Shown: positions 1 through 59,110 of the stretch, in pieces | Layout of the letters: the number at the start of each line of letters is the position of its first letter | How positions within the stretch are numbered: position 1 is the stretch's first letter | From: a virus | Taxonomy: Duplodnaviria > Caudoviricetes | DNA length: 59,110 nt | Virus record (IMG/VR): IMGVR_UViG_3300033551_000005 | Coordinates: 1-59,110 of that record | Strand: one strand, 5' to 3' | Notes under the pieces: generated by a model | What the model saw: only the letters and a program-made list of their open reading frames with translations | What the model was told of the DNA's origin: nothing | The model's database searches: none | Translations under genes and position numbers: made by a program

Positions 1-1582
1 CAGCGGGCGGCTCGGGGGTGGGCTCCGGCTCGGGCTCTTCCTCGGCGGCGCGCCCGGCCAGCACCTCGCGCACCTGGCGCAGCAGTTCCGGCATGCCCGG
101 GTTGGCCGCGAGCGCCGGAGCGGCGTTGACCATGCCGATCACCATCGCCACGTCGGGCTGCACGGCGCCGTCCTTCGGGGCGTCGCTGTCGGTGAAGCCG
201 GTCGCGGTGCGCAGCGCCTCGTCCGTGATGACGCCGACCTCGTGCGCCTTGAACGCGTCGTCCGTGCTGTTCGGGCGGACGATCAGGTGGTCCACCTTGT
301 AGTAGACGACGTAGTCCTTCACGTTGTCCGCGTTCATCCCGCGCGCCTCAAGCACGGGCCACAGGAACTGCGTCGTGGCGGCGTCGCAGAACCGCGCGAG
401 CGGCGGCTCTACGTGCGTCGTGATCGTGTCCTCCTTCACGAGCCACGCGCCCCAGTGGTTCATCGAGCCGAGGCCGAGCAGCACCTCGGGCGGCGCGTCC
501 TGCCCGAGCGCGAGGCGGCGGATCGCCTCGTCGCGCAGTTCCCGCGTCTCCTCGTCGAACGGCGTCGAGAACGTCTGGAAGTGGACATAGTCGGCGGCCG
601 ACCGGCCGGTCCCGTCGTCGGGGATCGGCACGGTCAGCGGCACGACGGCGGCGGCCGACGCGCGGTCCCGGATCGGGGTGAGCATGGCGTCCATGAACGC
701 CGTGTCGAAGTCGACGTCCTCCGCGTCCTCGCCCTCGCCCGCGATGTTCGCCTTGGCCGACTGCATGAGGAACAGCACACCCGCGCCCGCGAGACGCGAG
801 TCCGTCTGGGCCGAGATGTGCATGGTCAGGCCGACGAGTTCGCGCAGCACGGGCAGGCTGGCCTTCGTCGGGCTGGTCGCCTCCTTGCGGCGGCGCGGGT
901 GCGAGTGCCACACCCGGATGAGGTAGATGTCCGACTGCCGGACGTGGATCTTGTCGTCGCTGTCGGCGGCGTCGGCGTCGGCCCACTCGATCTGCACGGA
1001 CTCGCCGTCGATGATCACCTCGTCGATGGACATGTACCGCCACACGAGGTCGTCCACGTTGACAGTGTCCTCGCCCATGCCGATGGCCTCCGGCGCGAGC
1101 CGGAACATCGGGTCGTTGTCCTCCTCGACCGGCACGTCGAGGAACTGCTGCGGCATGCCGACGAGCCAGCCCTCGCCCGCGATGAAGTCGTTGACGCCGA
1201 ACCGCTGGAGCATCTGCGAGCGCTCCGACTCGGTGCCGAGCAGGTCGAGCACGTCGGCGGGGTCGCCTTCCTCGACGGGCTTCGGCGCGCCCATCTCGTC
1301 CTGATCGCTGACCTTGCCGACGTACAACTTCGCCCGGCCGATCGTGTTGGCGAGCGTGTCCGCGAGGTAGCGCTCCTCGCCCACCAGGTCGTACAGGTCC
1401 CAGGCCTCCGCCTGCCAGCCGCCCTTGGCAGCGCCGAGGTTGACCGTCCGGTCCACCTTGCGGCCCATGATGCGGGTCGCGGACGCGATGAGCGCCCGCC
1501 CGAACTCGCCCAGGCGGCTGGACGTCTTCGGCTTGAGGGTGCCCGTGCTGCGTACGCGAGGCGGGGCGGGGGTCATGGTCAT
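1..1582 (-). CDS. Portal protein (continues across the window junction to a stop at 59094)
   Basis: Not in the ORF track because there is no stop before base 1. ATG at 1580-1582 overlaps the upstream TGA. Reads MTMTPAPP...WQAEAWDLYDLVGEERYLADTLAN..., resembling mycobacteriophage cluster-B-like portals. Lies between terminase and MuF/protease. Confidence 0.85.
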   Translation of the reverse strand, partial: MTMTPAPPRVRSTGTLKPKTSSRLGEFGRALIASATRIMGRKVDRTVNLGAAKGGWQAEAWDLYDLVGEERYLADTLANTIGRAKLYVGKVSDQDEMGAPKPVEEGDPADVLDLLGTESERSQMLQRFGVNDFIAGEGWLVGMPQQFLDVPVEEDNDPMFRLAPEAIGMGEDTVNVDDLVWRYMSIDEVIIDGESVQIEWADADAADSDDKIHVRQSDIYLIRVWHSHPRRRKEATSPTKASLPVLRELVGLTMHISAQTDSRLAGAGVLFLMQSAKANIAGEGEDAEDVDFDTAFMDAMLTPIRDRASAAAVVPLTVPIPDDGTGRSAADYVHFQTFSTPFDEETRELRDEAIRRLALGQDAPPEVLLGLGSMNHWGAWLVKEDTITTHVEPPLARFCDAATTQFLWPVLEARGMNADNVKDYVVYYKVDHLIVRPNSTDDAFKAHEVGVITDEALRTATGFTDSDAPKDGAVQPDVAMVIGMVNAAPALAANPGMPELLRQVREVLAGRAAEEEPEPEPTPEPPA

Positions 1583-3194: not shown

Positions 3195-4805
3195 TTACCG
3201 ACCCGGTATCCGGCGCTGCGTGATGCGGGCCGAGCCGGTGCGGGCTCGCTCCGGCTTCCGGGCCGCCGCCGGGTTGCCCAACTTCATCGGCGCCGCCGTG
3301 CGCAGGCGCCCCAGGCAGTGCACGAGCACGTCGACCATGTCGTCGTGCGCGCCGGTGGGGAAGTTGCGCGTCTCGGTGAGCAGGTCCGTCACCCACTCGC
3401 AGCCGGGCTCCGAGGGGTGCGGGAGCAGCACGTTGCCCGCCTCGACGGTGGGCGTCTGCGCGCGAGCGCGGACCTCCTTGCTGTCCTTGGGGTTGACCGG
3501 GATGATGCCGTCGATTTCGTCGCGGAGCACGTCGATGATCGCCGTGCCGTTCGCCTTGTCCTCGATGAGCCGCGTCGTGACGTGCGCCGCCGAGAACGCG
3601 CGCACCTGCGGGAGCGTCGCCGTGAAGGACCACTTGTCCCGCACCTGCGCCGTGAGGATACGCAGCGCGCCCCGGCGCACCCACCGCTGGCCGACGACGT
3701 AGTCGGACGACTTGGTGTCCTTGAACGCCATGTCCCAGCCCTCGACCCAGGTGTCGCCCGCGTGCGGCTGCGCGACGTCGGGCAGGTACAGCACATCGAC
3801 GCCGTTCGCGCGGGCCGGGTCGGTGGTCCAGTAGCGCCACCACCCGACGTCGAAGATCGCGCCCTTCGCGGGCGAGGGGCGCTGCTGGTAGAGCGCCGCC
3901 CACACGTACGAGCCGACGTCGCGCTTGACCCCCTCCCACCGGACCAGGGCCTCCTCCGGCGTCTCGTCCACCAGCGGCGTGAGCAGCGGCTCGCCCGGCG
4001 CGCGGCCGAGCACGTCGTCCTCCTCCGCGAGGGCCGGGAACGAGATGACCTCCCACTCGGTGGGGTCGCCTTCGTGCTCGGCCGACAGCAGCCGCCCGAT
4101 GAAGTCGTCCTCGTGCCACCGCGTGCCGATCGCGATGACGAGCGCGGGCGGCTCCAGGCGGGTGCTCGCGGTGGACAGCCACCAGTCCCACACGGACTGC
4201 CGCAGCAGTTCCGAGTGGGCCGCGCCGAAGTCCTTGATGAGGTCGTCGAGCAGCAGCACCTTGAAGCCACGGCCGGTGATCGAGCCGCCGACGGACCGCG
4301 ACAGGACGCCGCCGCCCTCGGCCGTCTCCCACTCCTGCGCCGCCCCGGCGTCGGGCGCAATGCGGATGCCGAGTTCGGGGTGCTCGGTGACCCACCGGCG
4401 CACGGCCCGGCCCCACGCGGTGGAGAGGCTGGCCTCGTGCGAGACCATGCCGATCTTCCACTCGGGGTGCCGCCGCAGCAGCCACAGCGGCAGGTACTGG
4501 CTCGCGAGCGTGCTCTTCCCGGCACGGGGCGGCATCGAGATGGCGATGCGCCGGTTGCGCCCCGCCTCGACGTCGGCAACGGCCTGCTCCAGCCGCTCGG
4601 CCAGGTACGTCAGGTGCGGGCGCGAGCGGTAGCCCTCGTCCAACTCCTGGGCCTGGTCGAGCGGCGTCCGGGGCAGGTCCACCTGACTCGCGGGCAACGC
4701 CTCCAGCAGCGCACGCGCGGCGGGCTCGGGCAGGCTCTCCAGCAGGTCGTAGACCTGCTCCTCCGTGAGGTCGGCCAGCATCGCCACCAGTTCGTCGTTG
4801 CTCAT
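3195..4805 (-). CDS. terL: Terminase large subunit
   Basis: Walker A MPPRAGKST, Walker B LLLDDLIKD, GTRWHEDD, nuclease motifs GWDMA and FPTGAHDDMVD. Start taken at MSNDELV. Confidence 0.95.
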   Translation of the reverse strand: MSNDELVAMLADLTEEQVYDLLESLPEPAARALLEALPASQVDLPRTPLDQAQELDEGYRSRPHLTYLAERLEQAVADVEAGRNRRIAISMPPRAGKSTLASQYLPLWLLRRHPEWKIGMVSHEASLSTAWGRAVRRWVTEHPELGIRIAPDAGAAQEWETAEGGGVLSRSVGGSITGRGFKVLLLDDLIKDFGAAHSELLRQSVWDWWLSTASTRLEPPALVIAIGTRWHEDDFIGRLLSAEHEGDPTEWEVISFPALAEEDDVLGRAPGEPLLTPLVDETPEEALVRWEGVKRDVGSYVWAALYQQRPSPAKGAIFDVGWWRYWTTDPARANGVDVLYLPDVAQPHAGDTWVEGWDMAFKDTKSSDYVVGQRWVRRGALRILTAQVRDKWSFTATLPQVRAFSAAHVTTRLIEDKANGTAIIDVLRDEIDGIIPVNPKDSKEVRARAQTPTVEAGNVLLPHPSEPGCEWVTDLLTETRNFPTGAHDDMVDVLVHCLGRLRTAAPMKLGNPAAARKPERARTGSARITQRRIPGR

Positions 4806-4807
4806 GG

Positions 4808-5938
4808 TCACATCTTGCCGTCCGTGAGCACGAGCGCGGACGCCACGGCCATGTGCATGTCCAGGTACTGGTACGTGCCGAGCCGCCCGCCGAAGTGGAC
4901 GTCCGGCTCGGCCGCCGCCCGCGCCCGGTAGTCGAGCAGCAGCGCCCGGTCGGCCGCCGTGTTCACGGGGTAGTACGGCTCGTCGCCGGGCTCGGCCTCG
5001 CGGCTGTGCTCGGTGGCGATCAGCGTCTCCAGGTCGGACATGCGGCGGCGCGGCGTGAAGTGCCGGAACTCGATGGTGCGCGTGTGCATGGTGGTGGGGT
5101 CGGCCTCGTTCATCACGGCCGTGCCCTGGTAGTCGGCGCCGTCGACCCGCCGGTGGCGGAAGTCGAGCGTGCGCCACCGCAGCCGCCCGGCGTCGTGCCC
5201 GAAGTACGCATCGAGCGGGCCGGTGTAGACCACGGGGATCTGGCCGAGCACGCCGTGCGTGTGCTCGGGCGCGAACCGCACGCCGAGGTTCACCTCGATG
5301 AGCGGGTGGTCGGCCATGTTCGCCGCGAGCGCGCCGTAGCCCGTGTGCGGCATGGCCTGGTAGCGGTCCGAGAAGTACCGGCTGTCGTAGTTGTACCGGA
5401 CCGGCAGCCGCTTGATCACGTCGGCAGGCAGGTCGCGCGGGTTGGTCTGCCACTGCTTCGCCGTGTAGTCGCGGATGAACGCGTCGTACAGCGGGCGGCC
5501 GACCTCGCACAGCGCCCACTCCTCCAGATTGGCTGGATTAGTGATGCCCTCCTCGATGCGCGCGCGGTTCGCCTCGTGCCGGATCAGCGCCCGCGCGGAG
5601 GACGGGCTCAGGTCCTCGCCGTAGAGCGCGTTGATCGTCGCGAGGTTGATCGGCATCGGGTACACGCGGCCCGCCCGCCGGGTGAGCACACGGTGCTCGT
5701 AGCGGTCCCACTGCTCGAACCGCTGCATCCACGCCCAGACCCGCTCGTTGCTCGTGTGGAAGATGTGCGCGCCGTAGTCGTGCACCTCGATGCCCGTCGT
5801 CGGGTCGGTGTGGCTGTAGGCGTTCCCGCCGACGTGGTCGCGGCGCTCCATGACGGTGACCCGCCGCCCGGCCTCAGCCAGACGACGGGCCACCGTGAGG
5901 CCGAACAGCCCGGCCCCGACGACGAGGACGTCGCTCAT
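4808..5938 (-). CDS. glf: UDP-galactopyranose mutase
   Basis: MSDVLVVGAGLFG FAD motif, GGNAYS, YGAHIFHTSN, YTAKQW, EPYYPVN, GRLGTYQYLDMHMA. Confidence 0.95.
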   Translation of the reverse strand: MSDVLVVGAGLFGLTVARRLAEAGRRVTVMERRDHVGGNAYSHTDPTTGIEVHDYGAHIFHTSNERVWAWMQRFEQWDRYEHRVLTRRAGRVYPMPINLATINALYGEDLSPSSARALIRHEANRARIEEGITNPANLEEWALCEVGRPLYDAFIRDYTAKQWQTNPRDLPADVIKRLPVRYNYDSRYFSDRYQAMPHTGYGALAANMADHPLIEVNLGVRFAPEHTHGVLGQIPVVYTGPLDAYFGHDAGRLRWRTLDFRHRRVDGADYQGTAVMNEADPTTMHTRTIEFRHFTPRRRMSDLETLIATEHSREAEPGDEPYYPVNTAADRALLLDYRARAAAEPDVHFGGRLGTYQYLDMHMAVASALVLTDGKM

Positions 5939-6753
5939 GCGGACGCCCCCGGCGGCGGGACGTCGACCGGGTGCCCGCCGGTGCGCGGCTGGCGCACGAG
6001 GTCGACCTCCGGCCACTCGGACTTCTTCTTGGTGTTCCAGCGGAGGTAGTCGGGCCACTGTGCGACGAGCGCCTCCGACGAGCGCAGCACCTCGGCGTAG
6101 TTGCGGCCGTCGGCCTGGCAGCCGCCTGGCGTGTAGAACTCCCCGACGGGCGCCGTGTCGTCGCTGCGCAGGACGCCGCCGTCGTACCACCACGCACGCA
6201 GGGTGAGTTCCTGCTCGTCCTTGTACTTGACCGTCTGGACGTGCACGGGGTGGCCCGGCCGGTTGACGAAGCCGTAGAGGTTGAACATCACCAACTTGAG
6301 CCCCGTGCTGTACGGCCGGTCGTGCCGCATGTAGAACGCGTTCGGCACCGGCGCCGCGCCCCAGACGTGCAGCCCCTCGCGCTCGGTGTCCGCGAACATC
6401 TGCCGGAACCAGGCGTCCAGGTCGGCCACCTGCACAAGCGCGTCCTTCCCCGACGGCGCGACGGCGCGCATGACGCGCTTGATGTCGTCGTCCATCGAGA
6501 CGATGCGCTCGCCCGCCGGGAAGTCGCGGAGGATCTGCTGCCGCTGCGGGCCGATGCCCCGGTGGTTCGTGATGCGCGCGTTCACGCCCATCCCGCCGAG
6601 CAGGTCGATGTACGTGTCGATGAACGGGTCGTGCGCGTGCAGGTAGACCGTGATGGCCTCGCGCGGGACGCCACCCGCAAGCAGGGTGGACAGCGTCTTG
6701 CGGACCAGGCCCTCGGGGCGCTGGTAGGACGGGATGACGACGGAGTAGTTCAC
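5935..6753 (-). CDS. TET-associated (GREB1-like/TAGT) GT-A glycosyltransferase
   Basis: VVIPSYQRP, IVSMDDDI, K.E.ELTLR..YDGGVLR, PGGCQ; directly downstream of the TET/JBP gene. Confidence 0.8.
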   Translation of the reverse strand: MNYSVVIPSYQRPEGLVRKTLSTLLAGGVPREAITVYLHAHDPFIDTYIDLLGGMGVNARITNHRGIGPQRQQILRDFPAGERIVSMDDDIKRVMRAVAPSGKDALVQVADLDAWFRQMFADTEREGLHVWGAAPVPNAFYMRHDRPYSTGLKLVMFNLYGFVNRPGHPVHVQTVKYKDEQELTLRAWWYDGGVLRSDDTAPVGEFYTPGGCQADGRNYAEVLRSSEALVAQWPDYLRWNTKKKSEWPEVDLVRQPRTGGHPVDVPPPGASA

Positions 6754-7694
6754 AGGGCGCTCTCATCGTTCACGGGCCGAGGCGTGGGGTTGCCCCAACT
6801 GCCACGGCGGTCGGCACTCTTTGGACGGGTTTCCTTCGTGATGAGCCGGTCCGGGGTGTAGTCCGGATCGGCCATGCGCTCTTCGCGCTCGGTCCGCCGA
6901 CGGCGAGCCGAGGCCGTCTCGACGGCGTACGTGTGGCAGTCCTTGAGGCCGCGCAGCGCGTAGTAGACCACCGAGATTCGGTAGCCGCCCTTCGCCGTGA
7001 CCTTCATCGGCGTGACGCCGTGCACGAGCCCCTTGCCGTAGAACATGACGGCGTAGCCGTCCTGGCACGGGACCACCATGTCGTACTCGGGGATGTGCAG
7101 GTGCCCGCCCCGCACGTTCCGCCGGATGACCGGCATGGCCGACCACGCCTCGAAGTTGTTCCCGTCCCGGTGGTAGGGCAGGGCGCTCTCCGAGTTGATG
7201 ACGCCGCTCGTCCACAGGGACTCGTCCGACAGGCGCCACTCGGGCAGCACCTGCTGGATGGTCTCGCGGTCGGCCAACTCGATCTCCGGGAACGCCTCAC
7301 CGAGGGCGCGGCCCATGGTCTCGCTGTAGGCCACGAGGTGCGCGTGCACGTCGGGCTGCTCGTCGGCGAGCCGGGCCACCATGCACGCCTCCTGGCGCAT
7401 CATCGGCTTGCGCGGCCGGTTGCCGAACGTGCGCGAGGTGTTGCTCACCCCGGACGACCGGGCCTGCCCCGCCATCGGGCCGCCCATCTTCACCTGGAGG
7501 ATGTTCCGGCGGAACGCGGCCCGCTCGGGCATGGCGAGGTTCGCGAGCACGGGGGCGCCCGTCTCCTCGTCGACGAACAGCACGTCGCCTCGGAACGTCG
7601 GCTCCAGGGCCGGGGCCTGCGTGCCGACGAGGGCGCCCGCCTCCTCGTAGGACATGACGCGCTTGATCGGCACGCGAGGGATGTCGTCACGCAT
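6750..7694 (-). CDS. TET/JBP-family 2OG-Fe(II) dioxygenase
   Basis: SLWTSGVIN...LPYHRDGNN (HxD)...GGHLHIPEY...LVHGVTPM (H)...YRISVVYY (R). Start at MRDDIP. Confidence 0.85.
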   Translation of the reverse strand: MRDDIPRVPIKRVMSYEEAGALVGTQAPALEPTFRGDVLFVDEETGAPVLANLAMPERAAFRRNILQVKMGGPMAGQARSSGVSNTSRTFGNRPRKPMMRQEACMVARLADEQPDVHAHLVAYSETMGRALGEAFPEIELADRETIQQVLPEWRLSDESLWTSGVINSESALPYHRDGNNFEAWSAMPVIRRNVRGGHLHIPEYDMVVPCQDGYAVMFYGKGLVHGVTPMKVTAKGGYRISVVYYALRGLKDCHTYAVETASARRRRTEREERMADPDYTPDRLITKETRPKSADRRGSWGNPTPRPVNDESAL

Positions 7695-8463
7695 CGAACG
7701 TCTCCACGCCCAGCGCCTCGTCGATCGGGTCGACGTCGGCCTGCTCCAGTTCGGCGGGCGGCTGCACGTCGGAGAACTCCTGCGCCAGCCAGATCTGCAC
7801 GGCGCCCGCGTTGTTGTCGACGCCGTAGCGCTCGCGCAGCGCACGGAGCCGCGCCTGGATGGTCGGGTACTCGCTGATCGCGTAGTCGAGCACCACGAGG
7901 CGCCGCCCCTCGGCCGCGTACTTGCTCGCCGCCTCGCGGCCCTCCTCGGCCGTGTTCTTGAGCGGCACGGACTTCTCCGTGACGGTGGGCGCGGGCTCCT
8001 CGGCCAGTTCCTCCAGCCGAGCCCGCAGGTCGTCGGTGTCGGTCTCGGTGAAGCCGACGCCCTCGTAGTCGTCGAGGCCGTCGAGCAGGTCCAGCAGCGC
8101 GTCGTCCACCCAGCCGCCGAGTTCGGTGCTGCGGTTCAGGGCGATCAGCGCGGCGCGCGCCTCCGCGTCGGTGCGGCTCGCCCATCCGACGACGACCGGC
8201 ACCAGCCAGTGGCCGCCCGCGTCCACGCGGACGCCGTCGGGCGCGTTCTCGCCCCGGTCGCGCATGGCGGTCAGCGTCTCGTGGCGGCCGTGGCCCGAGA
8301 TGATGTAGCCCGTGCGGTCGTCGCGGACGATCTGGTCGATCACGCCGAACCGGCCGATCGACGCGTCGATGGTCTCCACGCTGTGGCTCTTGGGGTTGGC
8401 CGGGTCAGCGAGCAGGTGATCGAGCGGGATGTACTCGGTGCGGCGGGGAGCGGTCTCGGTCAT
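7687..8463 (-). CDS. ParB/Srx N-terminal-domain protein
   Basis: DPANPKSH..I.ASIGRFG.....IISGHGRHETL...ALIALNR. Confidence 0.8.
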   Translation of the reverse strand: MTETAPRRTEYIPLDHLLADPANPKSHSVETIDASIGRFGVIDQIVRDDRTGYIISGHGRHETLTAMRDRGENAPDGVRVDAGGHWLVPVVVGWASRTDAEARAALIALNRSTELGGWVDDALLDLLDGLDDYEGVGFTETDTDDLRARLEELAEEPAPTVTEKSVPLKNTAEEGREAASKYAAEGRRLVVLDYAISEYPTIQARLRALRERYGVDNNAGAVQIWLAQEFSDVQPPAELEQADVDPIDEALGVETFDA

Positions 8464-9143
8464 CAGTTGCCTCCGTAGATGGTGGCCGCCCGGTCGGGTC
8501 GGCCGCTGGTGTTCTTGCCGTGCCAGTGCCACGTCCAGGTCCGCTCGGGCAGGTGCTCGAACTTGGCCCCGGCGGCGAGCAGGCGCTGCCACAGGCCCCA
8601 GTCCTCGCAGTCTGCGTGGGGCCACTCCGGGCTGTTGGTCTGCGGGAACCCGCCGACGGCGACGAACAGGCTCGTGCGCACGAGCGCCGTGACCGGGATG
8701 TAGTTGTTCGCCTGGAGTGCAGACGCGCTGAACGGCTGCCCGAACGCGGGGCGGCCGTCGATGAGCAGCAGGTTGTCGCCCCGCTCGTTGGCCGGACGGC
8801 CCCCGGCCATCAGGTCGAACCAGGGGTAGACGACGTCGGCGCCGGTGGCCTCGGCGTGCGCGAGCAACTTGCCGACGTGCCCCGGCTGGAACTCGTCGTC
8901 GTCGTCGAGGAACGCGATGAACTCCGGGTCGCCCCCGGCGTTCAGGGTGTTCAGCACAGCGAGGTTCCGGCAGTAGGCGGGGCCGCGCCCCATGTGGTCC
9001 GTCTCGATCGCTCCAGCGACGAGCAGGTCCTCCTCACGGATGGACTTCACGGCCCGCTTGAGCAGGTCCTCGCGGCCGGTGATGGTCGGGATGACGATGA
9101 GCACGCGCGCGTCCTGGATGCGCAGTTCCTTCGCGGCGCCCAT
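8463..9143 (-). CDS. Glycosyltransferase family 2
   Basis: IVIPT..GR...GPAYCRN...FIAFLDDDDEF...VGGF...EDWGLW. Confidence 0.85.
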   Translation of the reverse strand: MGAAKELRIQDARVLIVIPTITGREDLLKRAVKSIREEDLLVAGAIETDHMGRGPAYCRNLAVLNTLNAGGDPEFIAFLDDDDEFQPGHVGKLLAHAEATGADVVYPWFDLMAGGRPANERGDNLLLIDGRPAFGQPFSASALQANNYIPVTALVRTSLFVAVGGFPQTNSPEWPHADCEDWGLWQRLLAAGAKFEHLPERTWTWHWHGKNTSGRPDRAATIYGGN

Positions 9144-9733
9144 CAGCGGAGCCACTGGAGGAACGTCACGCCGCGAGGCGTGGGCAGGCTGAGCCGGGCG
9201 AAGCCCAGCGTCGCTGCTGCGTCGGCCACCTGCTGCGAGAAGGCGCCGTACTTGGTGGCCGTGGGCTCGCCGCAGTCGTGCACGCCGACGATCGCCCCCG
9301 GCGCGAGCAGCGGGCGGATCGCGTGCAGTTCCGGCACGCGCAGGTCGAACAGGCTGTCCAGCCAGGCGAACCGCACGGACCGCGCGTGCGTGCCCAGGTC
9401 GACGAGGTGCTGGATGCCGCTCAGGCTCGGCTCCATCGTGACCTGCACCGGCAGCCCGGCAACGCGGTCGGCCGTGGCGGCGACGCGCTCGGGGTCCACC
9501 TCGAACGTGATGAGGTGCCCGACGCCCGCCGTGTGCAGCACCTGCCCGATGAGTTCGGCCGTCTGCCCGAAGGCGGACCCCGTCTCGATGACCAGGTCGG
9601 GCCGCAGCGCCTCGACGAACGCGGCGGCCAGGCGGCTCACCTCAATCTCGGTCGAGTCGCTGTCCGGGCTGTGCCAGCGCTCCGGGTGCGGGCAGTCCTT
9701 GCGGGACGGCGTGAACCGGCTCTCCAGTTCCAT
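9143..9733 (-). CDS. SAM-dependent methyltransferase (Methyltransf_24-like)
   Basis: RPDLVIETGSAFG, ITFEVD, FAWLDS, LLAPGAIVGVHD. No DNA-MTase PC or DPPY motif. Confidence 0.8.
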   Translation of the reverse strand: MELESRFTPSRKDCPHPERWHSPDSDSTEIEVSRLAAAFVEALRPDLVIETGSAFGQTAELIGQVLHTAGVGHLITFEVDPERVAATADRVAGLPVQVTMEPSLSGIQHLVDLGTHARSVRFAWLDSLFDLRVPELHAIRPLLAPGAIVGVHDCGEPTATKYGAFSQQVADAAATLGFARLSLPTPRGVTFLQWLR

Positions 9734-10374
9734 CAGCGGTATCCATACCTCTCGGCTCGGTCGATGAGCAGGTGCCCATCGCGGTGTTCGTACAGGTCAG
9801 CGATCGTAGGCCGGTGGTGGAGCACCTTGCTCGGCTCGTCCGCGTTCGCGTTGGGGCGGCCGACGAGGGTCATCGCTTCGCCCACCATGCTCGGGGTGAT
9901 CGTCTCCCGAGTCAGCCTCCGCAGTTCGGCCAGGTGCGGCGCCTCCAGGTAGATCGTGCGGTGCGGCACCGTGATGAGCGGCGCGTCCCAGAACGTGGCC
10001 CACCGGATGACGCGCCCGAGCCAGTCGGTCGCACCGCCGATGATCGGGCAGTGCCGTAGCGCGTAGGCGGCGAACGGCTCCTCGACGTCGCGCAGGAACC
10101 CGCGCTGCATCGCGCTCTGCACGACGGCGTCCGGGTCGCGCATCATGCGCACGATCGACGTCCGCGCGGGCAGGTCAGCGACGAACGGCGCGGCCAGCCA
10201 GGAGGAGTCCGACGCCGGGAGCGTGCCCGGCTCCGGGCGGGCTGTCACGGTGAACTGTGCCTCGTGCCCGCACGGGCGTCCGAGGGCGGTCATCATCGCC
10301 GCCGCCCACGCCGTGCCGGATCGGCCGCACCCCGTGATGAGGAACGGGCGGTCAGTCGTCGCTGTCGGGGGCAT
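9733..10374 (-). CDS. Sulfotransferase-like P-loop protein
   Basis: FLITGCGRSGT PAPS-loop, CGHE, RDP..VVQS. Confidence 0.65.
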   Translation of the reverse strand: MPPTATTDRPFLITGCGRSGTAWAAAMMTALGRPCGHEAQFTVTARPEPGTLPASDSSWLAAPFVADLPARTSIVRMMRDPDAVVQSAMQRGFLRDVEEPFAAYALRHCPIIGGATDWLGRVIRWATFWDAPLITVPHRTIYLEAPHLAELRRLTRETITPSMVGEAMTLVGRPNANADEPSKVLHHRPTIADLYEHRDGHLLIDRAERYGYR

Positions 10375-18643: not shown

Positions 18644-19663
18644 TCAGGCGCTGACGGCGACGTCCTGCGCGATGCGGCTGGCCGACTGGATCAGCCGGTC
18701 ACGGTCCAGGAACGACCGGCGGAACAGGTTCTCCGCGCGGTCCTGGTCGCTCTTGCCGCGCGTCGAGCGGAACCACTGGCTGTACTCGACGGCGCCCTGG
18801 ACCAGGCCGTACGCCGTGTTCTTCACGCCCTCCGAGGTGGCCGAGGCGAAGATCGTGCGCAGGTCGCCCCGGGCGGTCTCGATGTTCGTCATGACGCGCT
18901 TGCTGACGATCGCGGCCTCCGGCGCCGGGACGAACCGCTCGATGAACTCCTCGCGCTGCGCGTCGGTGATGCGCATGCTGATCAGGTGCTCGTTGAAGAC
19001 CTTCCACTCCTCGACGGACACGCGCCACATGGCGAGCGCCTGCTTGGCCTCCTCGATGCGGTCCTTCACGTTCTTCGTGTGCCGGAACACAATCTCGGTG
19101 CCGTGCGCCTTGGCGCTCATGTCGGCCATCCGGCTGGTGTTCGCGCAGACGATGCGGGTGTTGATCGCCTGGCCCCGGAACGAGCCGCCGCCGTCGTGGT
19201 TGTTCTGGAGGGCGAAGTACTGGAGGGTCGCGCCGTTCGGGTCGCCCCGCAGCACCAGCGGCTCCGCGAGCCGGAGCAGCAGCCACACCTGACGGCCGCC
19301 GCGCAGCGAGCCGCCCGTCTCGTACCGGATGTCGCCGCCGAGGCCGGTCACGGCCTCCGCGATGTCGTACATCTCCTCGTTCGTGACGATGCCGAGCGTG
19401 TCGTTCGTGACGCCGATGTGCCCGCCGTTGTCGCTGCGGACGACCTCCTGCTGGCCCTCGATGGGCTCGTAGGTCACGGTCGGCATGCCGTCCGGGCCGA
19501 AGCCGGGCACCTGCCGGAAGACCGGCGCCGTGATGGGCTCCCACGGGTGGGCGATGGCCTTCGCCTCCTCGCGGCTCGGGTACTCGGTGAGCACCTTGCC
19601 GAGGCCGTGCCACGGCATCTGGCGGACAGAGAACATGTCGTCGGTGCTGGTGATCTCGTGCAT
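18644..19663 (-). CDS. DUF932/DUF945 family protein
   Basis: MFSVRQMPWHGLG...YETGGSLRGGRQVW...NNHDG...RIVCANT...RHT. Confidence 0.85.
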   Translation of the reverse strand: MHEITSTDDMFSVRQMPWHGLGKVLTEYPSREEAKAIAHPWEPITAPVFRQVPGFGPDGMPTVTYEPIEGQQEVVRSDNGGHIGVTNDTLGIVTNEEMYDIAEAVTGLGGDIRYETGGSLRGGRQVWLLLRLAEPLVLRGDPNGATLQYFALQNNHDGGGSFRGQAINTRIVCANTSRMADMSAKAHGTEIVFRHTKNVKDRIEEAKQALAMWRVSVEEWKVFNEHLISMRITDAQREEFIERFVPAPEAAIVSKRVMTNIETARGDLRTIFASATSEGVKNTAYGLVQGAVEYSQWFRSTRGKSDQDRAENLFRRSFLDRDRLIQSASRIAQDVAVSA

Positions 19664-36977: not shown

Positions 36978-37213
36978 CGGTTGCGGCCGTCATCACGGCC
37001 GCTGACGTCCGGGCCGCAGCCGTTCGCATCTGCGAACGCGACGGGATCACCGAGGGTGACCTACGCGAACGGCTGCGGCTCGGGTCGATAGCGGCCCGGA
37101 CGAAACCGTGCCGCCAGTGCGGCACGGTCTGGACGGCGGCCCGTGAGGGCGCCGCATACTGCTCCGGCTCTTGCCGTTCGCAGTGGAACCGAGAGAACGG
37201 GACGAACGAATGA
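36974..37213 (+). CDS. Small Zn-finger protein
   Basis: CRQCG...YCSGSCR. Confidence 0.55.
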   Translation: MTVAAVITAADVRAAAVRICERDGITEGDLRERLRLGSIAARTKPCRQCGTVWTAAREGAAYCSGSCRSQWNRENGTNE

Positions 37214-38277
37214 AGGTCGCAGTAATCCCCTCCGACACGGGAGCGTGCGGATACTTCCGTCTCATCTGGCCCGCCGAGGCGGTCCGTAGCGTCCGGCCCG
37301 AGTGGACCGTGAACGTTTACCGACCGCAGGACGTGAAGGTCGGCTACGGCCCGAACGGGCTCGCCGTGCAGGGCCTGGACGTTACCGACCTGGACCTTGC
37401 CGTTTTCCAGCGGGTCGGAACCGCACGGCAGGTCGAACTCGTCCGCGCCCTCCAGGCGGGCGGGATCGGGGTCGCCATCGACGTGGACGACGCGCTCTAC
37501 TGCATCGACCCGGACAGCGGCTCGTTCCCGGCCTGGAACCACAGCCGCAGCACGACGCACTGGTCGAACCTGGAGGAGGCGTGCAAGAAGGCCGACCTGG
37601 TGACCGTGACGACGGACGCGCTCGCGCGGCACTACGCGCGGCACGCTCGCGTCGAGCGCATCCCGAACGGGCTGCCGGACCGCGCCTACGTCGAGCCGAG
37701 CCCGCTCGCTGCGCTCACCGACGCCGTGACCATCGGCTGGTCCGGGGTGGCCCCCTCGCACCCGCACGATCTGGAGGTCGTGGGGACGGCCCTGGCGGAC
37801 GTTCTCGCCGAGGACCGCGAGGTCTACGTCAAGATCGTGGGCGACGGCCTGTGGGCCGCTGACGTCCTCCAGGTGCCGAGCGAGCGGCTGGTCAACAAGG
37901 ACCGCGTGCCGCTGTACGACTACCACGAGGCGCTGGCCGGGACCGACATCGGTATCGTGCCGCTGGCCGACACGAAGTTCAACGAGGCGAAGTCGAGCCT
38001 CAAGGCGCTGGAGTACATGGGCGTCGGCGCCCGCGTGATCGCGAGCCCGACCCCGGCCAACATCGAACTCAGCCTCGACACCGGCATGAGCATCGCCAAG
38101 ACGCCCGAGGCGTGGGCGACCGCGCTCCGGATGGAGATTGCCCGCGTGCGCACCGACCGCGCCGAGGGCACGGTGGGCGGCCCGTCCGTCCGCCACCTGA
38201 GCATCCTCGGAAGGGCCGAGGAGTGGGCCACCGCGTGGGAGCGCGCGGCGGCTCGGCGTAAGAACCTGACCAAGTAG
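37210..38277 (+). CDS. GT-B fold glycosyltransferase
   Basis: GACGYFRL..P, DVDD, ADLVTVTT, IGWSG..SH..DL, DIGIVPL....FNEAKSSLKALEY...IASP. Confidence 0.85.
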   Translation: MKVAVIPSDTGACGYFRLIWPAEAVRSVRPEWTVNVYRPQDVKVGYGPNGLAVQGLDVTDLDLAVFQRVGTARQVELVRALQAGGIGVAIDVDDALYCIDPDSGSFPAWNHSRSTTHWSNLEEACKKADLVTVTTDALARHYARHARVERIPNGLPDRAYVEPSPLAALTDAVTIGWSGVAPSHPHDLEVVGTALADVLAEDREVYVKIVGDGLWAADVLQVPSERLVNKDRVPLYDYHEALAGTDIGIVPLADTKFNEAKSSLKALEYMGVGARVIASPTPANIELSLDTGMSIAKTPEAWATALRMEIARVRTDRAEGTVGGPSVRHLSILGRAEEWATAWERAAARRKNLTK

Positions 38278-57667: not shown

Positions 57668-58645
57668 TCAGAGGATGGACGCGCCCACCATGGTGCAGCG
57701 GCAGTTGACGGTCTCGCTCGGGATGCCCGCCGGGTCGCCCGGCATCATGAGCGGGGTGACCCCCACGACGAACGGCTGCGTGATCGGCACGGCCTGCCGG
57801 TCCGCCTCGCGGTGGCTCGGCCGGGTGCGGGCGTCCTCGGTGGCGATCCAGACCTTGGTCGCCTCGCCCTCGTCCGCGAGCGCCGCGAGCCCGGCCGCGT
57901 TGTACGCGCCGGTGCTCTCCGTGCGGGCGATGCGCTGCGCGCGCACCTGCCAGTAGGACTCCTCGGCGTCGAGCGCGAGCCGCGCCCGGTTGCGCTGCGC
58001 TTGCAACTGCCCGACGACGGGGTCGCTCTCGCGGGCCGCCTCGCGCGCGGGGGTTCCGGGCGGGCCGAGCGGGTCGAGGATCGCCTCGATGTCCGTCGTC
58101 AGGCGCTCGTACTCGCTGCGCCAGTACGCGCCGTCGGTCTCCCAGGACAGATCGGCTGCAATCCGCCCAGACAGTTCGTTGTTGGACCAGCCGAACGACG
58201 CCGCCAGCGTGACCGCCACGCGCACGAGGTCGAACGCGGCGTCGGGCAGGGGCGGCGTCAGCCCCTCGACGAGCCGGTCCGAGACGTGGGCCAGGTACTC
58301 GTCCAGGTTGTCCAGGCTGGAGACCGTCTCCTCGCCGTCCGACGTCGCCCCGTACCCGGCTCGCCACGCCGCGCGCACGGCGGCAATCACCGTGTCGCTG
58401 ACGAACTCGGCCCACCACGACGACAGCGTGCCCACCGTGAGCGGCCAGACGCGGGTCGCCCCCGGGCTGAGCGCGGCCACGAGCGCCTGCGGGTTGGGCG
58501 CCTGCCGCAGCCCGTAGTCGGCGGCGTCGTTGACGGCCGCCAGGAAGCCGCGCACGGCCCGGTCGACAGCCGGGGCCACGATGTCCTCCTCGACGCGCTC
58601 CAGGTCCGCCAGCATCCCCGCCTGGGTGCGCTGACGGAGCGTCAC
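57668..58645 (-). CDS. MuF-like minor capsid protein
   Basis: RAQRIARTE...KVWIATEDARTRPSH...PGDP....ETVNCRC. Confidence 0.9.
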   Translation of the reverse strand: MTLRQRTQAGMLADLERVEEDIVAPAVDRAVRGFLAAVNDAADYGLRQAPNPQALVAALSPGATRVWPLTVGTLSSWWAEFVSDTVIAAVRAAWRAGYGATSDGEETVSSLDNLDEYLAHVSDRLVEGLTPPLPDAAFDLVRVAVTLAASFGWSNNELSGRIAADLSWETDGAYWRSEYERLTTDIEAILDPLGPPGTPAREAARESDPVVGQLQAQRNRARLALDAEESYWQVRAQRIARTESTGAYNAAGLAALADEGEATKVWIATEDARTRPSHREADRQAVPITQPFVVGVTPLMMPGDPAGIPSETVNCRCTMVGASIL

Positions 58646-59097
58646 GAGCGCACCTCCGGCAGAGGAACGCCGAGCCGGGCCGCGAGCCAGTACCGCAGCG
58701 ACACGGCGTCGTGCTCCAGCCCCCGCTCCAGCAGCAGGCGGACGTACTCGTTGAGCGAGGCGCTGACGTCCTCGGCCGCGATACCGAGGGCGTCGGACCG
58801 GCGCGACGCGAGCAGCGCGGGAAGCACGTCCCACGCCGTTTCGAGCGTGCGGGCTACGTCCTTGGGGTCGGGCCGCCACTGCGTGTGCGCGACGTGCCAC
58901 GGCCGCCCGTCGAACTCCTTGAAGCGTGACCGAGGCTGCCGGACGATCTTGCGCCCGAGCGCGTCGAGCGCCTTGATGACGAGCACGTCGCACACGTCGA
59001 GCAGCGCCGAGCGCTCCGCCGTCGCGGGCAGCGACCAGGCGCCGCACGCGGGGCACGGCGCGACGGGTGCCGTGCCGGTGGGGATGGTGGTGGTCAC
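58642..59097 (-). CDS. Hypothetical protein downstream of portal
   Basis: GTG start overlapping the portal TGA; CAGGAGG RBS at 59104-59110. Confidence 0.7.
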   Translation of the reverse strand: MTTTIPTGTAPVAPCPACGAWSLPATAERSALLDVCDVLVIKALDALGRKIVRQPRSRFKEFDGRPWHVAHTQWRPDPKDVARTLETAWDVLPALLASRRSDALGIAAEDVSASLNEYVRLLLERGLEHDAVSLRYWLAARLGVPLPEVRS

Positions 59098-59110
59098 GCG
59101 GGGCCTCCTG

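What the first reader, a model, noticed from the sequence alone, without database searches (positions are those of the whole stretch)
4808..8463. TET/JBP + TAGT + UDP-galactopyranose mutase: a candidate galactofuranosyl DNA base
Seen: four translationally coupled genes (ParB-like, TET/JBP dioxygenase with intact HxD/H/R, TET-associated glycosyltransferase, full-length UDP-galactopyranose mutase) run directly into terL. Established: TET/JBP enzymes hydroxylate the methyl group of T or 5mC; associated glycosyltransferases add sugar to the hydroxymethyl base, as in base J; Glf makes UDP-galactofuranose, normally for cell-wall glycans. Inference: the phage makes its own UDP-Galf donor and installs Galf on hmU or hmC, a furanose analogue of base J that I do not know to have been described. 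I found no C5-cytosine DNA methyltransferase in this apparently complete genome, which favours thymine (or host-made 5mC) as substrate. The terminase/ParB linkage suggests coupling to packaging.
Basis: partly seen in the sequence, partly recalled or inferred. Interest (0 to 1): 0.92.

Follow-up and report, generated by a model that had tools for sequence, protein, structure and literature searches.

The report
Phage DNA-sugar module with Glf
A soil phage carries, just before its DNA-packaging gene, a thymine hydroxylase with its helper protein, a DNA-type sugar transferase and an enzyme that makes the rare sugar donor UDP-galactofuranose, which together probably decorate the phage's DNA with an unusual sugar.

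Summary
On the minus strand, ParB-like (7687-8463), TET/5mYOX (6750-7694), TAGT-family GT-A (5935-6753) and a full-length UDP-galactopyranose mutase (4808-5938) run with 4-8 nt overlaps into terL. Contigs from two other studies bridge four of the junctions.

- ParB+TET matches the published ParB-dependent thymine dioxygenases, so ParB is the hydroxylase's activator, not a packaging link.
- No C5-methyltransferase or thymidylate-synthase homologue is found in six frames.
- This GT subfamily follows a TET in 16 of 17 related loci.
- In sister phages the same slot holds known 5hmU-modifying enzymes (AADT, P-loop kinase).
- Glf lies beside a TAGT-family GT and ParB in three GT lineages, sometimes with an epimerase. 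It does so in 0 of 158 bacterial-type Glf loci.
- In three near-complete Glf phages TAGT is the only GT detected.

Against: long Glf fusions pair with GT2/GT-B, never TAGT, and the window has both. Many ParB-TAGT(-Glf) phages have no TET.

Verdict: a new variant of a known kind, probably a galactofuranosylated 5hmU (confidence about 0.5), with no chemical evidence yet.

The parts
7687..8463 (-). ParB-like protein (258 aa), probable activator of the adjacent T-dioxygenase
   Evidence: phrog_620 1.8e-24, no Pfam hit. 8-nt overlap with the TET start. 48-75% identical homologues precede TET or TAGT in relatives. The role is inferred from PMC13229309.
6750..7694 (-). TET/JBP-family 5-methylpyrimidine dioxygenase (314 aa), predicted thymine to 5hmU
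   Evidence: Tet_JBP 24.2 bits, below the cutoff; phrog_6059 1.8e-79. Invariant H175/D177/H225/R239. The AF2 model's top matches are NgTET1, TET2, CcTet and CMD1.
5935..6753 (-). TAGT-family GT-A glycosyltransferase (272 aa), predicted DNA 5hmU glycosyltransferase
   Evidence: PF20691 36.3 bits, above the 27.5 cutoff. Invariant DDD 88-90 and near-invariant R12. pLDDT 95.8, GT-A fold. Follows a TET in 16 of 17 related high-GC loci.
4808..5938 (-). UDP-galactopyranose mutase Glf (376 aa), makes UDP-galactofuranose
   Evidence: PF03275 1.1e-68. TIGR00031 equivalog 312 bits, above 303.75. Best solved UGM E 5.7e-124. 4-nt overlap with the GT stop.
3195..4805 (-). Large terminase, downstream boundary of the module
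   Evidence: Terminase_6N/6C and phrog_38 4.9e-94. Its ATG lies 2 nt after the Glf stop.
8463..9155 (-). GT2-family glycosyltransferase (230 aa): accessory, possible second sugar transferase or a separate pathway
   Evidence: PF00535 6.8e-10, phrog_14775 3.5e-25. Its homologue in Streptomyces phage Zuko sits in a GT-methyltransferase-GT operon. Absent from L093 and G005.
9143..9733 (-). Class I methyltransferase, rhamnosyl-O-MT/CmcI-like (196 aa), possible sugar O-methylation
   Evidence: PF13578 8e-8; PF04989 1.9e-4, below its cutoff. No tblastn match in 50,697 phage records.
9733..10374 (-). Weak sulfotransferase-like gene (213 aa), dispensable in a close strain
   Evidence: PF13469 22.6 bits, below the cutoff of 27. 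A high-depth contig in run X6 joins 9733 to 10354, skipping it.
37210..38277 (+). GT-B glycosyltransferase (355 aa), a lineage backbone gene and possible alternative UDP-Galf user
   Evidence: PF13692 3.3e-7. Conserved at 42% identity in the TET-less, Glf-less relative G005.

Best explanation
This is a post-replicative thymidine hypermodification cassette in a high-GC soil siphophage related to Microbacterium phages of the genus Mementomorivirus.

Proposed steps:
1. The TET/5mYOX enzyme, activated on double-stranded DNA by its cognate ParB-like protein, oxidises selected thymines in phage DNA to 5-hydroxymethyluracil. This is inferred by homology to characterised enzymes.
2. [quoted passage not shown] 3. 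The TAGT-family GT-A enzyme, translationally coupled to both, transfers the sugar to the 5hmU hydroxyl. The product would be 5-(galactofuranosyl-oxymethyl)uracil, a furanose analogue of base J (inferred).
4. The neighbouring GT2, O-methyltransferase-like and sulfotransferase-like genes may elaborate the glycan, or may belong to a separate pathway.

The likely benefit is protection of phage DNA from host nucleases.
For: (1) ParB+TET belongs to a family shown to make 5hmU.
- Fold and invariant HxD...H...R.
- An adjacent, overlapping ParB.
- About 60 residues, including a helix at 253-275, follow the invariant C253. PMC13229309 reports such a C-terminal extension only in ParB-dependent enzymes.
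- No PF00145, PF01555, PF00303 or PF02511 in six frames.

(2) The slot between TET and terL is a 5hmU-derivatisation slot.
- In Microbacterium phage Kozie it holds an amino-acid:DNA transferase (PF18724 1.3e-22), an FAD oxidoreductase and a P-loop nucleotide kinase (PF18751 4e-18).
- Terij keeps the kinase homologue (52% identity).

(3) This GT subfamily directly follows a TET in 16 of 17 high-GC viral loci. It carries the R...DDD motif that the preprint reports for JGT-like DNA GT-A enzymes.

(4) Glf is linked to TAGT-family GTs repeatedly.
- L093: ParB 75%, TAGT-family 330-aa GT (44.3 bits), Glf 68%, terL 81%.
- Seven lower-GC loci carry Glf-ParB-TAGT-terL: L176, L177, L178, L179, L181, L182 and L184. 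An epimerase lies directly upstream in L179, L182 and L184.
- The three GT lineages share no BLASTP-detectable similarity.

(5) Background: 0 of 80 bacterial genome Glf loci and 0 of the other 78 metagenome Glf loci have a TAGT, TET, phage ParB or terL within the flanks.

(6) In G006, G007 and G008 (100, 100 and 97% complete; all with Glf), TAGT is the only GT detected among 7 families tested. The window served as positive control for GT2 and PF13692.

(7) Natural ParB_N+TAGT fusion proteins exist (L187 474 aa, L189 459 aa). These tie the GT family to the DNA-associated partner.

(8) Precedents: GTs of 5mYOX clusters that need a partner epimerase, and a phage Glf proposed for galactosylated 5-hydroxycytosine DNA in RL38J1.
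Against: - No chemistry exists: nothing here shows any modified base.
- Of the 120 best-listed long Glf fusion proteins (823 at E<=1e-20), none carries PF20691. The partners are GT-B (PF13692/PF00534), GT2 (PF00535) and flippases. The window itself encodes a GT2 two genes upstream of the TET and a PF13692 GT-B, so either could be the Galf-transferase.
- 0 of the 17 loci with this GT subfamily have a Glf. These GTs therefore normally work with some other donor, and the window's Glf is a lineage-specific addition.
- The other Glf-linked TAGT lineages occur in genomes with no TET. There is 0 Tet_JBP in G005-G009 and in 27 further ParB-TAGT records, while 4 of 4 TET-positive controls ring. G005-G009 also have no thymidylate-synthase homologue. 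No other 2OG oxygenase family tested is found in G005-G009 or G025. So Glf+TAGT does not require 5hmU, and its acceptor there is unknown.
- The Tet_JBP Pfam score is below the gathering threshold.
- L014 has this GT without a TET in a 58%-complete record.
- The Glf tree does not establish independent acquisitions.
- The record is 94% complete, so a methyltransferase in the missing part cannot be strictly excluded.
Confidence: 0.5

Rival explanations
1. Glf serves a non-DNA glycosylation pathway. UDP-Galf would be used by the GT2 (8463-9155) and/or the GT-B (37210-38277), with the O-methyltransferase, to glycosylate virion proteins or a host envelope polymer. The TAGT-family GT would glycosylate 5hmU with a host donor such as UDP-glucose.
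For: - Long Glf fusions pair with GT-B (PF13692/PF00534) and GT2 (PF00535) domains and never with TAGT among the 120 listed.
- The GT2 homologue in Streptomyces phage Zuko sits in a GT-methyltransferase-GT operon, and no Streptomyces phage appears in the genus tally of the TET search.
- GT2 and GT-B homologues lie within about 4 kb of each other in Arthrobacter phage Atuin.
- 0 of 17 loci with this GT subfamily have a Glf.
- Virion glycosylation by GT plus O-MT operons in mycobacteriophages is known (recalled, not read here).
Against: - Glf is placed after the TAGT-family GT with a 4-nt overlap, not beside the GT2.
- The close relative L093 keeps Glf next to a TAGT-family GT while having no GT2, O-MT or sulfotransferase-like gene between the g17 homologue and ParB.
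- The GT-B is conserved in G005, which has no Glf.
- In G006-G008, Glf co-occurs with TAGT as the only GT detected.
Confidence: 0.2
2. Galf is on the DNA but is not the base-proximal sugar. The TAGT-family GT would put a first sugar (for example glucose) on 5hmU. The GT2 would then add Galf, and the glycan might be O-methylated.
For: - All seven genes from 4808 to 10374 are tightly coupled.
- Multi-sugar DNA glycans built by successive GTs are documented.
- GT2 is a common fusion partner of Glf.
- PMC13229309 lists O-methyltransferases and secondary sugar enzymes among 5mYOX neighbours.
Against: - L093 and the G006-G008 lineage have Glf with a TAGT-family GT and no GT2.
- The GT2/O-MT cassette occurs in a phage genus absent from the TET search tally.
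- A strain in run X6 lacks the sulfotransferase-like gene, which shows that the upstream block is variable.
Confidence: 0.12
3. The Glf/TAGT pair acts on an acceptor other than 5hmU, as it must in the TET-less phages, and the TET/ParB pair works independently, leaving plain 5hmU in the DNA.
For: - ParB-TAGT(-Glf) modules exist in records rated 97-100% complete without Tet_JBP (G005-G008, G025).
- G005-G008 also lack PF00303.
- G005-G008 and G025 lack three other 2OG-oxygenase families.
Against: - The window's GT belongs to a different subfamily that follows a TET in 16 of 17 loci.
- Sister phages fill the same slot with 5hmU-modifying enzymes.
Confidence: 0.08
4. The substrate is host-made 5-methylcytosine, giving glycosylated 5hmC rather than 5hmU.
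For: The characterised phage T-dioxygenases also oxidise 5mC in vitro (abstract of PMC13229309). Host methylation is unknown.
Against: - No C5-MT or N4/N6-MT is encoded.
- Characterised phage 5mC-dioxygenases form other clades and sit next to a C5-MT.
- Deposited relatives of this protein are annotated 'oxidoreductase', and in one record 'thymidine hydroxylase'.
Confidence: 0.05

Closest known systems
ParB-dependent phage T-dioxygenases (5mYOX clade C1, e.g. 5mYOX176/ParB176; O'Toole et al., PNAS 2026, PMC13229309)
   Same: An adjacent ParB-like gene, a TET fold with the HxD...H...R motif, a C-terminal extension, no neighbouring C5-MT, and frequent linkage to GTs and terminase. The paper reports co-occurrence of 31% for GTs and 19.2% for terminases.
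   Different: No sequence of the tested enzymes was available to me, so clade membership is inferred from features. The paper's text as read names GATases, kinases, AADTs, GTs, O-MTs and epimerases as partners. A library-wide search for 'galactopyranose mutase' with '5mYOX' found no paper. Its Dataset S10 could not be seen.
Base J pathway of kinetoplastids (JBP1/2 thymine hydroxylase plus JGT glucosyltransferase)
   Same: The same two-step logic: T to 5hmU by a TET/JBP enzyme, then O-glycosylation by a GT-A enzyme with a DDD motif. The preprint aligns phage GT-A enzymes with T. cruzi JGT.
   Different: The donor would be UDP-galactofuranose made by a dedicated phage mutase rather than UDP-glucose. 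The hydroxylase needs a ParB partner. The host is a phage of Actinomycetota, not a eukaryote.
Phage 5mYOX-GT biosynthetic clusters with a partner sugar epimerase (bioRxiv 10.1101/2023.12.21.572611)
   Same: A GT whose activity depends on a co-encoded sugar-nucleotide tailoring enzyme that supplies the donor. Both GT-A and GT-B types occur, and ParB and terminase are among the neighbours.
   Different: Those tested clusters act on 5hmC made from MT-installed 5mC and use epimerases. Here there is no MT, the substrate is probably T, and the tailoring enzyme is a pyranose-furanose mutase.
Rhizobium phage RL38J1 / Pootjesviridae glycosylated 5-hydroxycytosine (NAR 2026, PMC13326640)
   Same: A phage-encoded UDP-galactopyranose mutase proposed to supply UDP-Galf for a galactose attached to a DNA pyrimidine. 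Those Glf genes are 38-40% identical to the window's.
   Different: The base there is 5-hydroxycytosine, made pre-replicatively by a thymidylate-synthase homologue. That homologue is absent here. The GTs are GT-B-like by the paper's Table 1. The genomes are about 150-kb myoviruses of Rhizobium and Agrobacterium hosts.
Thymidine hypermodification cassettes of sister phages (Microbacterium phages Kozie and Terij)
   Same: The same backbone and position: ParB-TET-[cassette]-terL, with terL about 57% and TET 55-61% identical.
   Different: Their cassette is a P-loop kinase, with or without AADT and an FAD oxidoreductase (the amino-acid or aminomethyl route). Here it is GT plus Glf (the sugar route).

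Membership tests
TET/JBP (5mYOX) dioxygenases | Double-stranded beta-helix fold most similar to TET-family DNA dioxygenases | tested here: met
   AF2 model pLDDT 86.1. The 20 best-ranked listed Foldseek PDB matches are NgTET1, CcTet, TET2 and CMD1, with E 7e-12 to 1.5e-8.
TET/JBP (5mYOX) dioxygenases | Fe(II) triad HxD...H and the 2OG-binding Arg | tested here: met
   H175, D177, H225 and R239 are invariant in 46 sequences. Their assignment to the metal and 2OG roles is from general knowledge.
TET/JBP (5mYOX) dioxygenases | Pfam PF12851 gathering score | tested here: not met
   24.2 bits against a cutoff of 34.9. PMC13229309 notes that many phage 5mYOXs lack this annotation.
ParB-dependent T-dioxygenase subclass | Cognate ParB-like gene adjacent, with no neighbouring C5-MT | tested here: met
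   ParB overlaps the TET start by 8 nt. PF00145 is absent from the whole record.
ParB-dependent T-dioxygenase subclass | C-terminal extension beyond the last Cys conserved in both subclasses | tested here: inconclusive
   About 60 residues, including a helix at 253-275, follow the invariant C253. Equivalence of C253 to C280 of 5mYOX176 could not be checked without that sequence.
ParB-dependent T-dioxygenase subclass | T to 5hmU activity that requires ParB on dsDNA | not testable with these tools
   Needs co-expression and nucleoside LC-MS.
TAGT (PF20691) DNA glycosyltransferases | Pfam gathering score, GT-A fold and a DxD-type motif | tested here: met
   36.3 bits against 27.5. GT-A fold, pLDDT 95.8. 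Invariant D88-D90 and near-invariant R12.
TAGT (PF20691) DNA glycosylltransferases | Genomic association with a TET/JBP gene | tested here: met
   16 of 17 related high-GC loci have a TET directly upstream. This does not hold for other TAGT subfamilies: 0 of 27 records.
TAGT (PF20691) DNA glycosyltransferases | Transfer of a sugar to a 5-hydroxymethylpyrimidine in DNA, and donor identity | not testable with these tools
   Needs an in vitro assay with UDP-Galf, UDP-Galp and UDP-Glc.
UDP-galactopyranose mutase (Glf/UGM) | Equivalog-level sequence match over the full length | tested here: met
   TIGR00031 312 bits against 303.75. PF03275 1.1e-68. Residues 3-376 align to 4xgk residues 6-383, E 5.7e-124.
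Pootjesviridae-type Glf-dependent DNA glycosylation | Thymidylate-synthase homologue that makes 5-hydroxy-dCMP | tested here: not met
   PF00303 has no hit at E<=1 in six frames. The window is therefore not a member of that system, although it may work like it at the donor step.
Actinophage virion-glycosylation operons (recalled from memory) | GT(s) plus an O-methyltransferase acting on capsid or tail proteins | tested here: inconclusive
   GT2 and an O-MT-like gene are present, and Zuko has a similar operon. No acceptor motif or protein evidence could be tested.

The most novel reading that the evidence does not exclude
ParB-guided TAGT enzymes are DNA galactofuranosyltransferases. In this phage they would build a furanosyl analogue of base J on TET-made 5hmU. 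In at least four other phage genomes rated 97-100% complete, the same ParB-TAGT pairing works without any detectable TET, thymidylate-synthase-type hydroxymethylase or other tested 2OG oxygenase; three of those genomes also carry Glf and two an epimerase. That would mean a DNA glycosylation chemistry whose acceptor is not made by any known route.
Probability: 0.2. Interest if true: 0.9.

Novelty: new variant of a known kind. Interest (0 to 1): 0.68.

Why it matters
If correct, this phage's DNA carries a natural base not yet reported: a galactofuranosylated 5-hydroxymethyluracil. That would extend the base J and glucosyl-hmC paradigm to a furanose hexose, a sugar ring form absent from mammals.

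It would also show that phages diversify one hydroxylated-thymine platform by swapping cassettes at a fixed site: kinase/AADT in sister phages, GT+Glf here.

In practical terms, a UDP-Galf-specific DNA glycosyltransferase would be a new tool for tagging 5hmU. Such modifications also decide which restriction and CRISPR systems a phage escapes.

The side observation matters too. ParB-TAGT(-Glf) modules and ParB-TAGT fusions occur in genomes with no hydroxylase. This opens a directly testable question about what these 'TET-associated' transferases modify.

Tried and rejected
**Leads that gave nothing or were inconclusive**
- No RNA holder was listed for the stretch, so nothing can be said about expression.
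- The Glf tree was a quick tree, because the careful search did not finish. It had 53 rows. I used 40 of the 80 bacterial loci (every second one). I left out all 78 bacterial-type metagenome loci and the near-duplicates L004, L010, L178 and L181, and I had no non-actinobacterial anchors. It gives three separate TAGT-linked groups, but starred branches do not exclude one origin, so I make no claim of convergent acquisition.
- The search for Glf fused to TAGT found none among the 120 listed. This is reported as evidence against.
- Other viral Glf loci (L005, L007) sit next to GT25 and Fringe-like GTs, not TAGT. L006 has Glf cut by the contig end, so it is uninformative.
- Sequence search of the TET against the PDB gave only a chance hit, E 0.75.
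- The O-MT-like protein has no tblastn match in the phage collection.

**Limits on coverage**
- I scanned 38 of my 94 gene calls against Pfam. The structural genes g74-g94 were not scanned. Absence claims therefore rest on the six-frame family searches named in the report.
- A recount gives 16 of 17.

**Papers**
- Iyer et al. 2013, which defined TAGT, is not held. What I say about it is recalled.
- Supplements were closed and I did not ask for them. Dataset S10 of PMC13229309 and Fig. S11 of PMC13326640 may bear on whether Glf was already seen beside 5mYOX genes and on the ring form in RL38J1.
- PMC13229309: I read the abstract and sections 5, 6, 11, 12 and 13.
- PMC13326640: section 28 and found passages.
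- 10.1101/2023.12.21.572611, PMC10611076 and PMC8256090: found passages only.
- 'Not in print' rests.

Full report
**What is there.** The window is a whole IMG/VR virus record of 59,110 bases. It is linear, and CheckV estimates it to be 94% complete. It is about 70% G+C throughout. Calling genes by third-position GC gives 94 genes.

On the minus strand the order is:
- sulfotransferase-like, 9733-10374
- O-methyltransferase-like, 9143-9733
- GT2, 8463-9155
- ParB-like, 7687-8463
- TET/5mYOX, 6750-7694
- TAGT-family GT, 5935-6753
- Glf, 4808-5938
- terL, 3195-4805

Successive stop/start overlaps are 1, 13, 1, 8, 4 and 4 nt, with a 2-nt spacer before terL.

**Gene identities.**
- Glf is unambiguous. 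PF03275 scores 1.1e-68. The NCBIfam equivalog TIGR00031 scores 312 bits against a cutoff of 303.75. There is an end-to-end match to solved UDP-galactopyranose mutases, with a best E of 5.7e-124.
- The GT passes Pfam's TAGT cutoff, 36.3 against 27.5 bits. It has an invariant D88-D89-D90 in 56 aligned sequences. It folds with pLDDT 95.8 into a GT-A fold with no close solved relative.
- The TET misses Pfam's cutoff, 24.2 against 34.9 bits. However, H175, D177, H225 and R239 are invariant in 46 sequences. Its model (pLDDT 86.1) has only TET-family DNA dioxygenases as its 20 best-ranked listed matches.
- The ParB-like protein has no Pfam hit but matches several PHROG ParB families.

**The arrangement is not an assembly artefact.** Near-identical DNA occurs in soil metagenomes from several studies. 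Contigs of runs X4 and X2, from two studies other than the possible source, bridge the Glf/GT, GT/TET, TET/ParB and ParB/GT2 junctions. No listed piece bridges the Glf/terL junction.

**What the ParB and TET are.** The nearest deposited relatives are Microbacterium phages of the genus Mementomorivirus. Their terL is about 73% identical at the nucleotide level and about 57% at the protein level, and their TET is 55-61% identical. Terij shows the order ParB-TET-x-terL. Kozie, whose record begins at the TET, shows TET-x-terL.

A 2026 PNAS paper (PMC13229309; abstract and sections 5, 6, 11, 12 and 13 read) shows experimentally that such phage 5mYOX enzymes oxidise thymine in DNA to 5hmU. It also shows that one subclass needs its neighbouring ParB-like protein to act on double-stranded DNA. 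That subclass has a C-terminal extension, lacks a neighbouring C5-methyltransferase, and is linked to thymidine-hypermodification genes, GTs and terminases.

The window's pair fits these features:
- ParB overlaps the TET.
- About 60 residues follow the invariant C253.
- No PF00145, PF01555, PF00303 or PF02511 is found in six frames.

Its suggestion that ParB reflects coupling to packaging is not the best reading.

**The slot is a cassette site.**
- In Kozie, the genes between TET and terL are an amino-acid:DNA transferase (PF18724), an FAD oxidoreductase and a P-loop nucleotide kinase (PF18751). PMC13229309 names these kinds of enzymes as T-hypermodification machinery.
- Terij keeps only the kinase homologue.
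- The complete relative G005 (58,139 bases, terminal repeats) shares 33 of the window's 94 proteins. At this site it has ParB, a different TAGT-family GT, then terL. It lacks TET, Glf, GT2, O-MT and the sulfotransferase-like gene.
- The window fills the slot with GT+Glf.

**Is this GT a TET partner?** Yes. An alignment-based scan of viral contigs returned 80 loci. Of these, 17 are high-GC with 39-52% identity (L012 and L014-L029; several are near-copies from different samples). In 16 of the 17, a TET lies directly upstream.

The exception is L014. There the upstream ORF is not a TET, and the 58%-complete record has none. None of the 17 has a Glf. The other 63 loci are low-GC, many from giant-virus MAGs, at about 30% identity.

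The preprint 10.1101/2023.12.21.572611 (passages) reports two relevant things. GT-A enzymes of 5mYOX clusters resemble the base J glucosyltransferase and carry an R...DDD... motif. Many of them worked only when co-expressed with a partner sugar epimerase.

**Is Glf linked to the GT?** Evidence for a link:
1. *Phage collection.* 90 of 50,697 deposited phage records have a Glf and 100 have this TET. No genus is shared among those shown (86 of the 90 Glf records fall in displayed genera).
2. *A close relative.* Among 79 metagenome Glf loci, only L093 has module genes: ParB (75%), a 330-aa TAGT-family GT (44.3 bits), Glf (68%) and terL (81%). It has no GT2, O-MT or sulfotransferase-like gene between the g17 homologue and ParB.
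3. *A lower-GC lineage.* Seven viral loci with GC 0.36-0.51 carry Glf-ParB-TAGT-terL (L176, L177, L178, L179, L181, L182, L184). L179, L182 and L184 also have a UDP-sugar epimerase directly upstream of Glf.
4. *Unrelated GTs.* The three Glf-linked GT lineages share no BLASTP-detectable similarity.
5. *Background.* 0 of 80 bacterial genome Glf loci and 0 of the other 78 metagenome loci have a TAGT, TET, phage ParB or terL nearby.
6. *Only GT present.* In G006, G007 and G008 (100, 100 and 97% complete), TAGT is the only GT detected among PF00535, PF13692, PF00534, PF13641, PF01501, PF02434 and PF20691. The window rang as a control for GT2 and PF13692.

The window has no epimerase of its own, so it would draw on host UDP-galactopyranose. 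Its Glf is nearest to Micrococcales enzymes, at 54-60% identity.

**What speaks against the simple model.**
- Long Glf fusions pair with GT-B, GT2 and flippase domains. None of the 120 listed has TAGT. The window has a GT2 two genes upstream of the TET and a PF13692 GT-B at 37210-38277.
- The GT2 homologue in Streptomyces phage Zuko sits in a GT-methyltransferase-GT operon. In Arthrobacter phage Atuin, homologues of the GT2 and GT-B lie within about 4 kb of each other. So the upstream block may be a separate glycosylation cassette. It could use UDP-Galf either for a second DNA sugar or for a non-DNA target.
- The Glf-linked TAGT lineages outside the window occur in genomes with no TET. G005-G009 have no Tet_JBP, no hit to my TET profile and no thymidylate-synthase homologue. 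A further 27 ParB-TAGT records have no Tet_JBP, while 4 of 4 TET-positive controls ring. Three other 2OG-oxygenase families are absent from G005-G009 and G025.
- ParB and TAGT are adjacent or overlapping in most of the 38 loci that have both. They are fused into one protein in L187 and L189, as ParB_N plus TAGT.

So ParB partners the GT family directly, and Glf+TAGT does not need 5hmU. What those phages glycosylate is unexplained.

**Comparison with the known, and novelty.** Several elements are already known:
- the two-step logic (base J);
- the ParB-dependent T-dioxygenase;
- GT-A enzymes in 5mYOX clusters that depend on a sugar-nucleotide tailoring enzyme;
- a phage Glf proposed to supply UDP-Galf for galactosylated 5-hydroxycytosine in Rhizobium phage RL38J1 (PMC13326640).

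The window is not a member of the RL38J1-type system, because it lacks the thymidylate-synthase homologue.

I found no paper that links a galactopyranose mutase to a 5mYOX/TET cluster or Galf to 5hmU. Supplements and Iyer et al. 2013 could not be read.

I therefore rate this a new variant of a known kind. My confidence is about 0.5 that a Galf-containing sugar ends up on TET-made 5hmU, most simply as the base-proximal sugar placed by the TAGT-family GT. No result here is chemical. The decisive test is nucleoside LC-MS and NMR after co-expression with and without Glf.

Noticed in passing
L187:2675-4099 and L189:406-1785; also G005, G006, G007, G008, G025: Natural ParB_N+TAGT fusion proteins exist. 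There is also a large set of ParB-TAGT gene pairs (38 loci with both) in phage genomes without any detectable TET. In G005-G008 there is also no thymidylate-synthase homologue, and in G005-G008 and G025 no other tested 2OG oxygenase. What these 'TET-associated' GTs modify is unknown.
   Followed up: partly
L182:7161-10837, L184:7155-10819, L179:6744-11788: A conserved four-gene cassette, epimerase-Glf-ParB-TAGT, lies directly before terL in ~40-kb phages with GC 0.39-0.51. It forms a complete UDP-Glc to UDP-Galp to UDP-Galf to GT supply line. L179's GT is a tandem of two TAGT domains.
   Followed up: partly
window 9733-10354: In soil run X6, a high-depth contig joins 9733 to 10354 with 9 other letters in between. 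A close strain therefore lacks the sulfotransferase-like gene.
   Followed up: no
L002 (Microbacterium phage Kozie genes 2-4) and L001 (Terij gene 3): Kozie genes annotated 'hypothetical protein' match amino-acid:DNA transferase (PF18724), FAD oxidoreductase (DAO) and P-loop nucleotide kinase 3 (PF18751).
   Followed up: partly
window 6750-7694 and deposited relatives: PHROG phrog_6059 and many RefSeq mycobacteriophage records label this TET family 'queuine tRNA-ribosyltransferase'. This looks like a propagated misannotation. Newer records say 'oxidoreductase', 'Tet-like J-binding protein' or 'thymidine hydroxylase'.
   Followed up: no
L030-L092: 63 of the 80 viral loci found with the GT alignment are low-GC, and many are giant-virus MAG contigs. 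Their TAGT homologues are about 27-35% identical. One homologue comes from a green-alga record (P0084).
   Followed up: no
window 18644-19663; L014:2908-3900; L020:8839-9771; L184:1-957: A DUF932 protein (PF06067, E 7e-39 in the window) recurs in the window and in several otherwise different ParB/TAGT phages.
   Followed up: no
L023:10142-10834: A QueC-like gene (PF06508, 1.9e-6) lies about 1.3 kb downstream of the end of the TET-GT pair in a 97-kb viral contig. That phage may combine thymidine and 7-deazaguanine modification.
   Followed up: no
window 1-1582 and 57668-59110: ORFs run off both ends of the record and the frames do not close into a circle. A protein identical to the TET is on record on a 68,217-base contig (P0086), so a longer assembly of this phage exists elsewhere.
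   Followed up: no
window 37210-38277; G005:22524-23615; Arthrobacter phage Atuin genes 165 and 169-170: The GT-B is a backbone gene shared with the Glf-less relative G005. Its homologue in Atuin lies within about 4 kb of homologues of the window's GT2, which hints at a separate two-GT pathway.
   Followed up: partly
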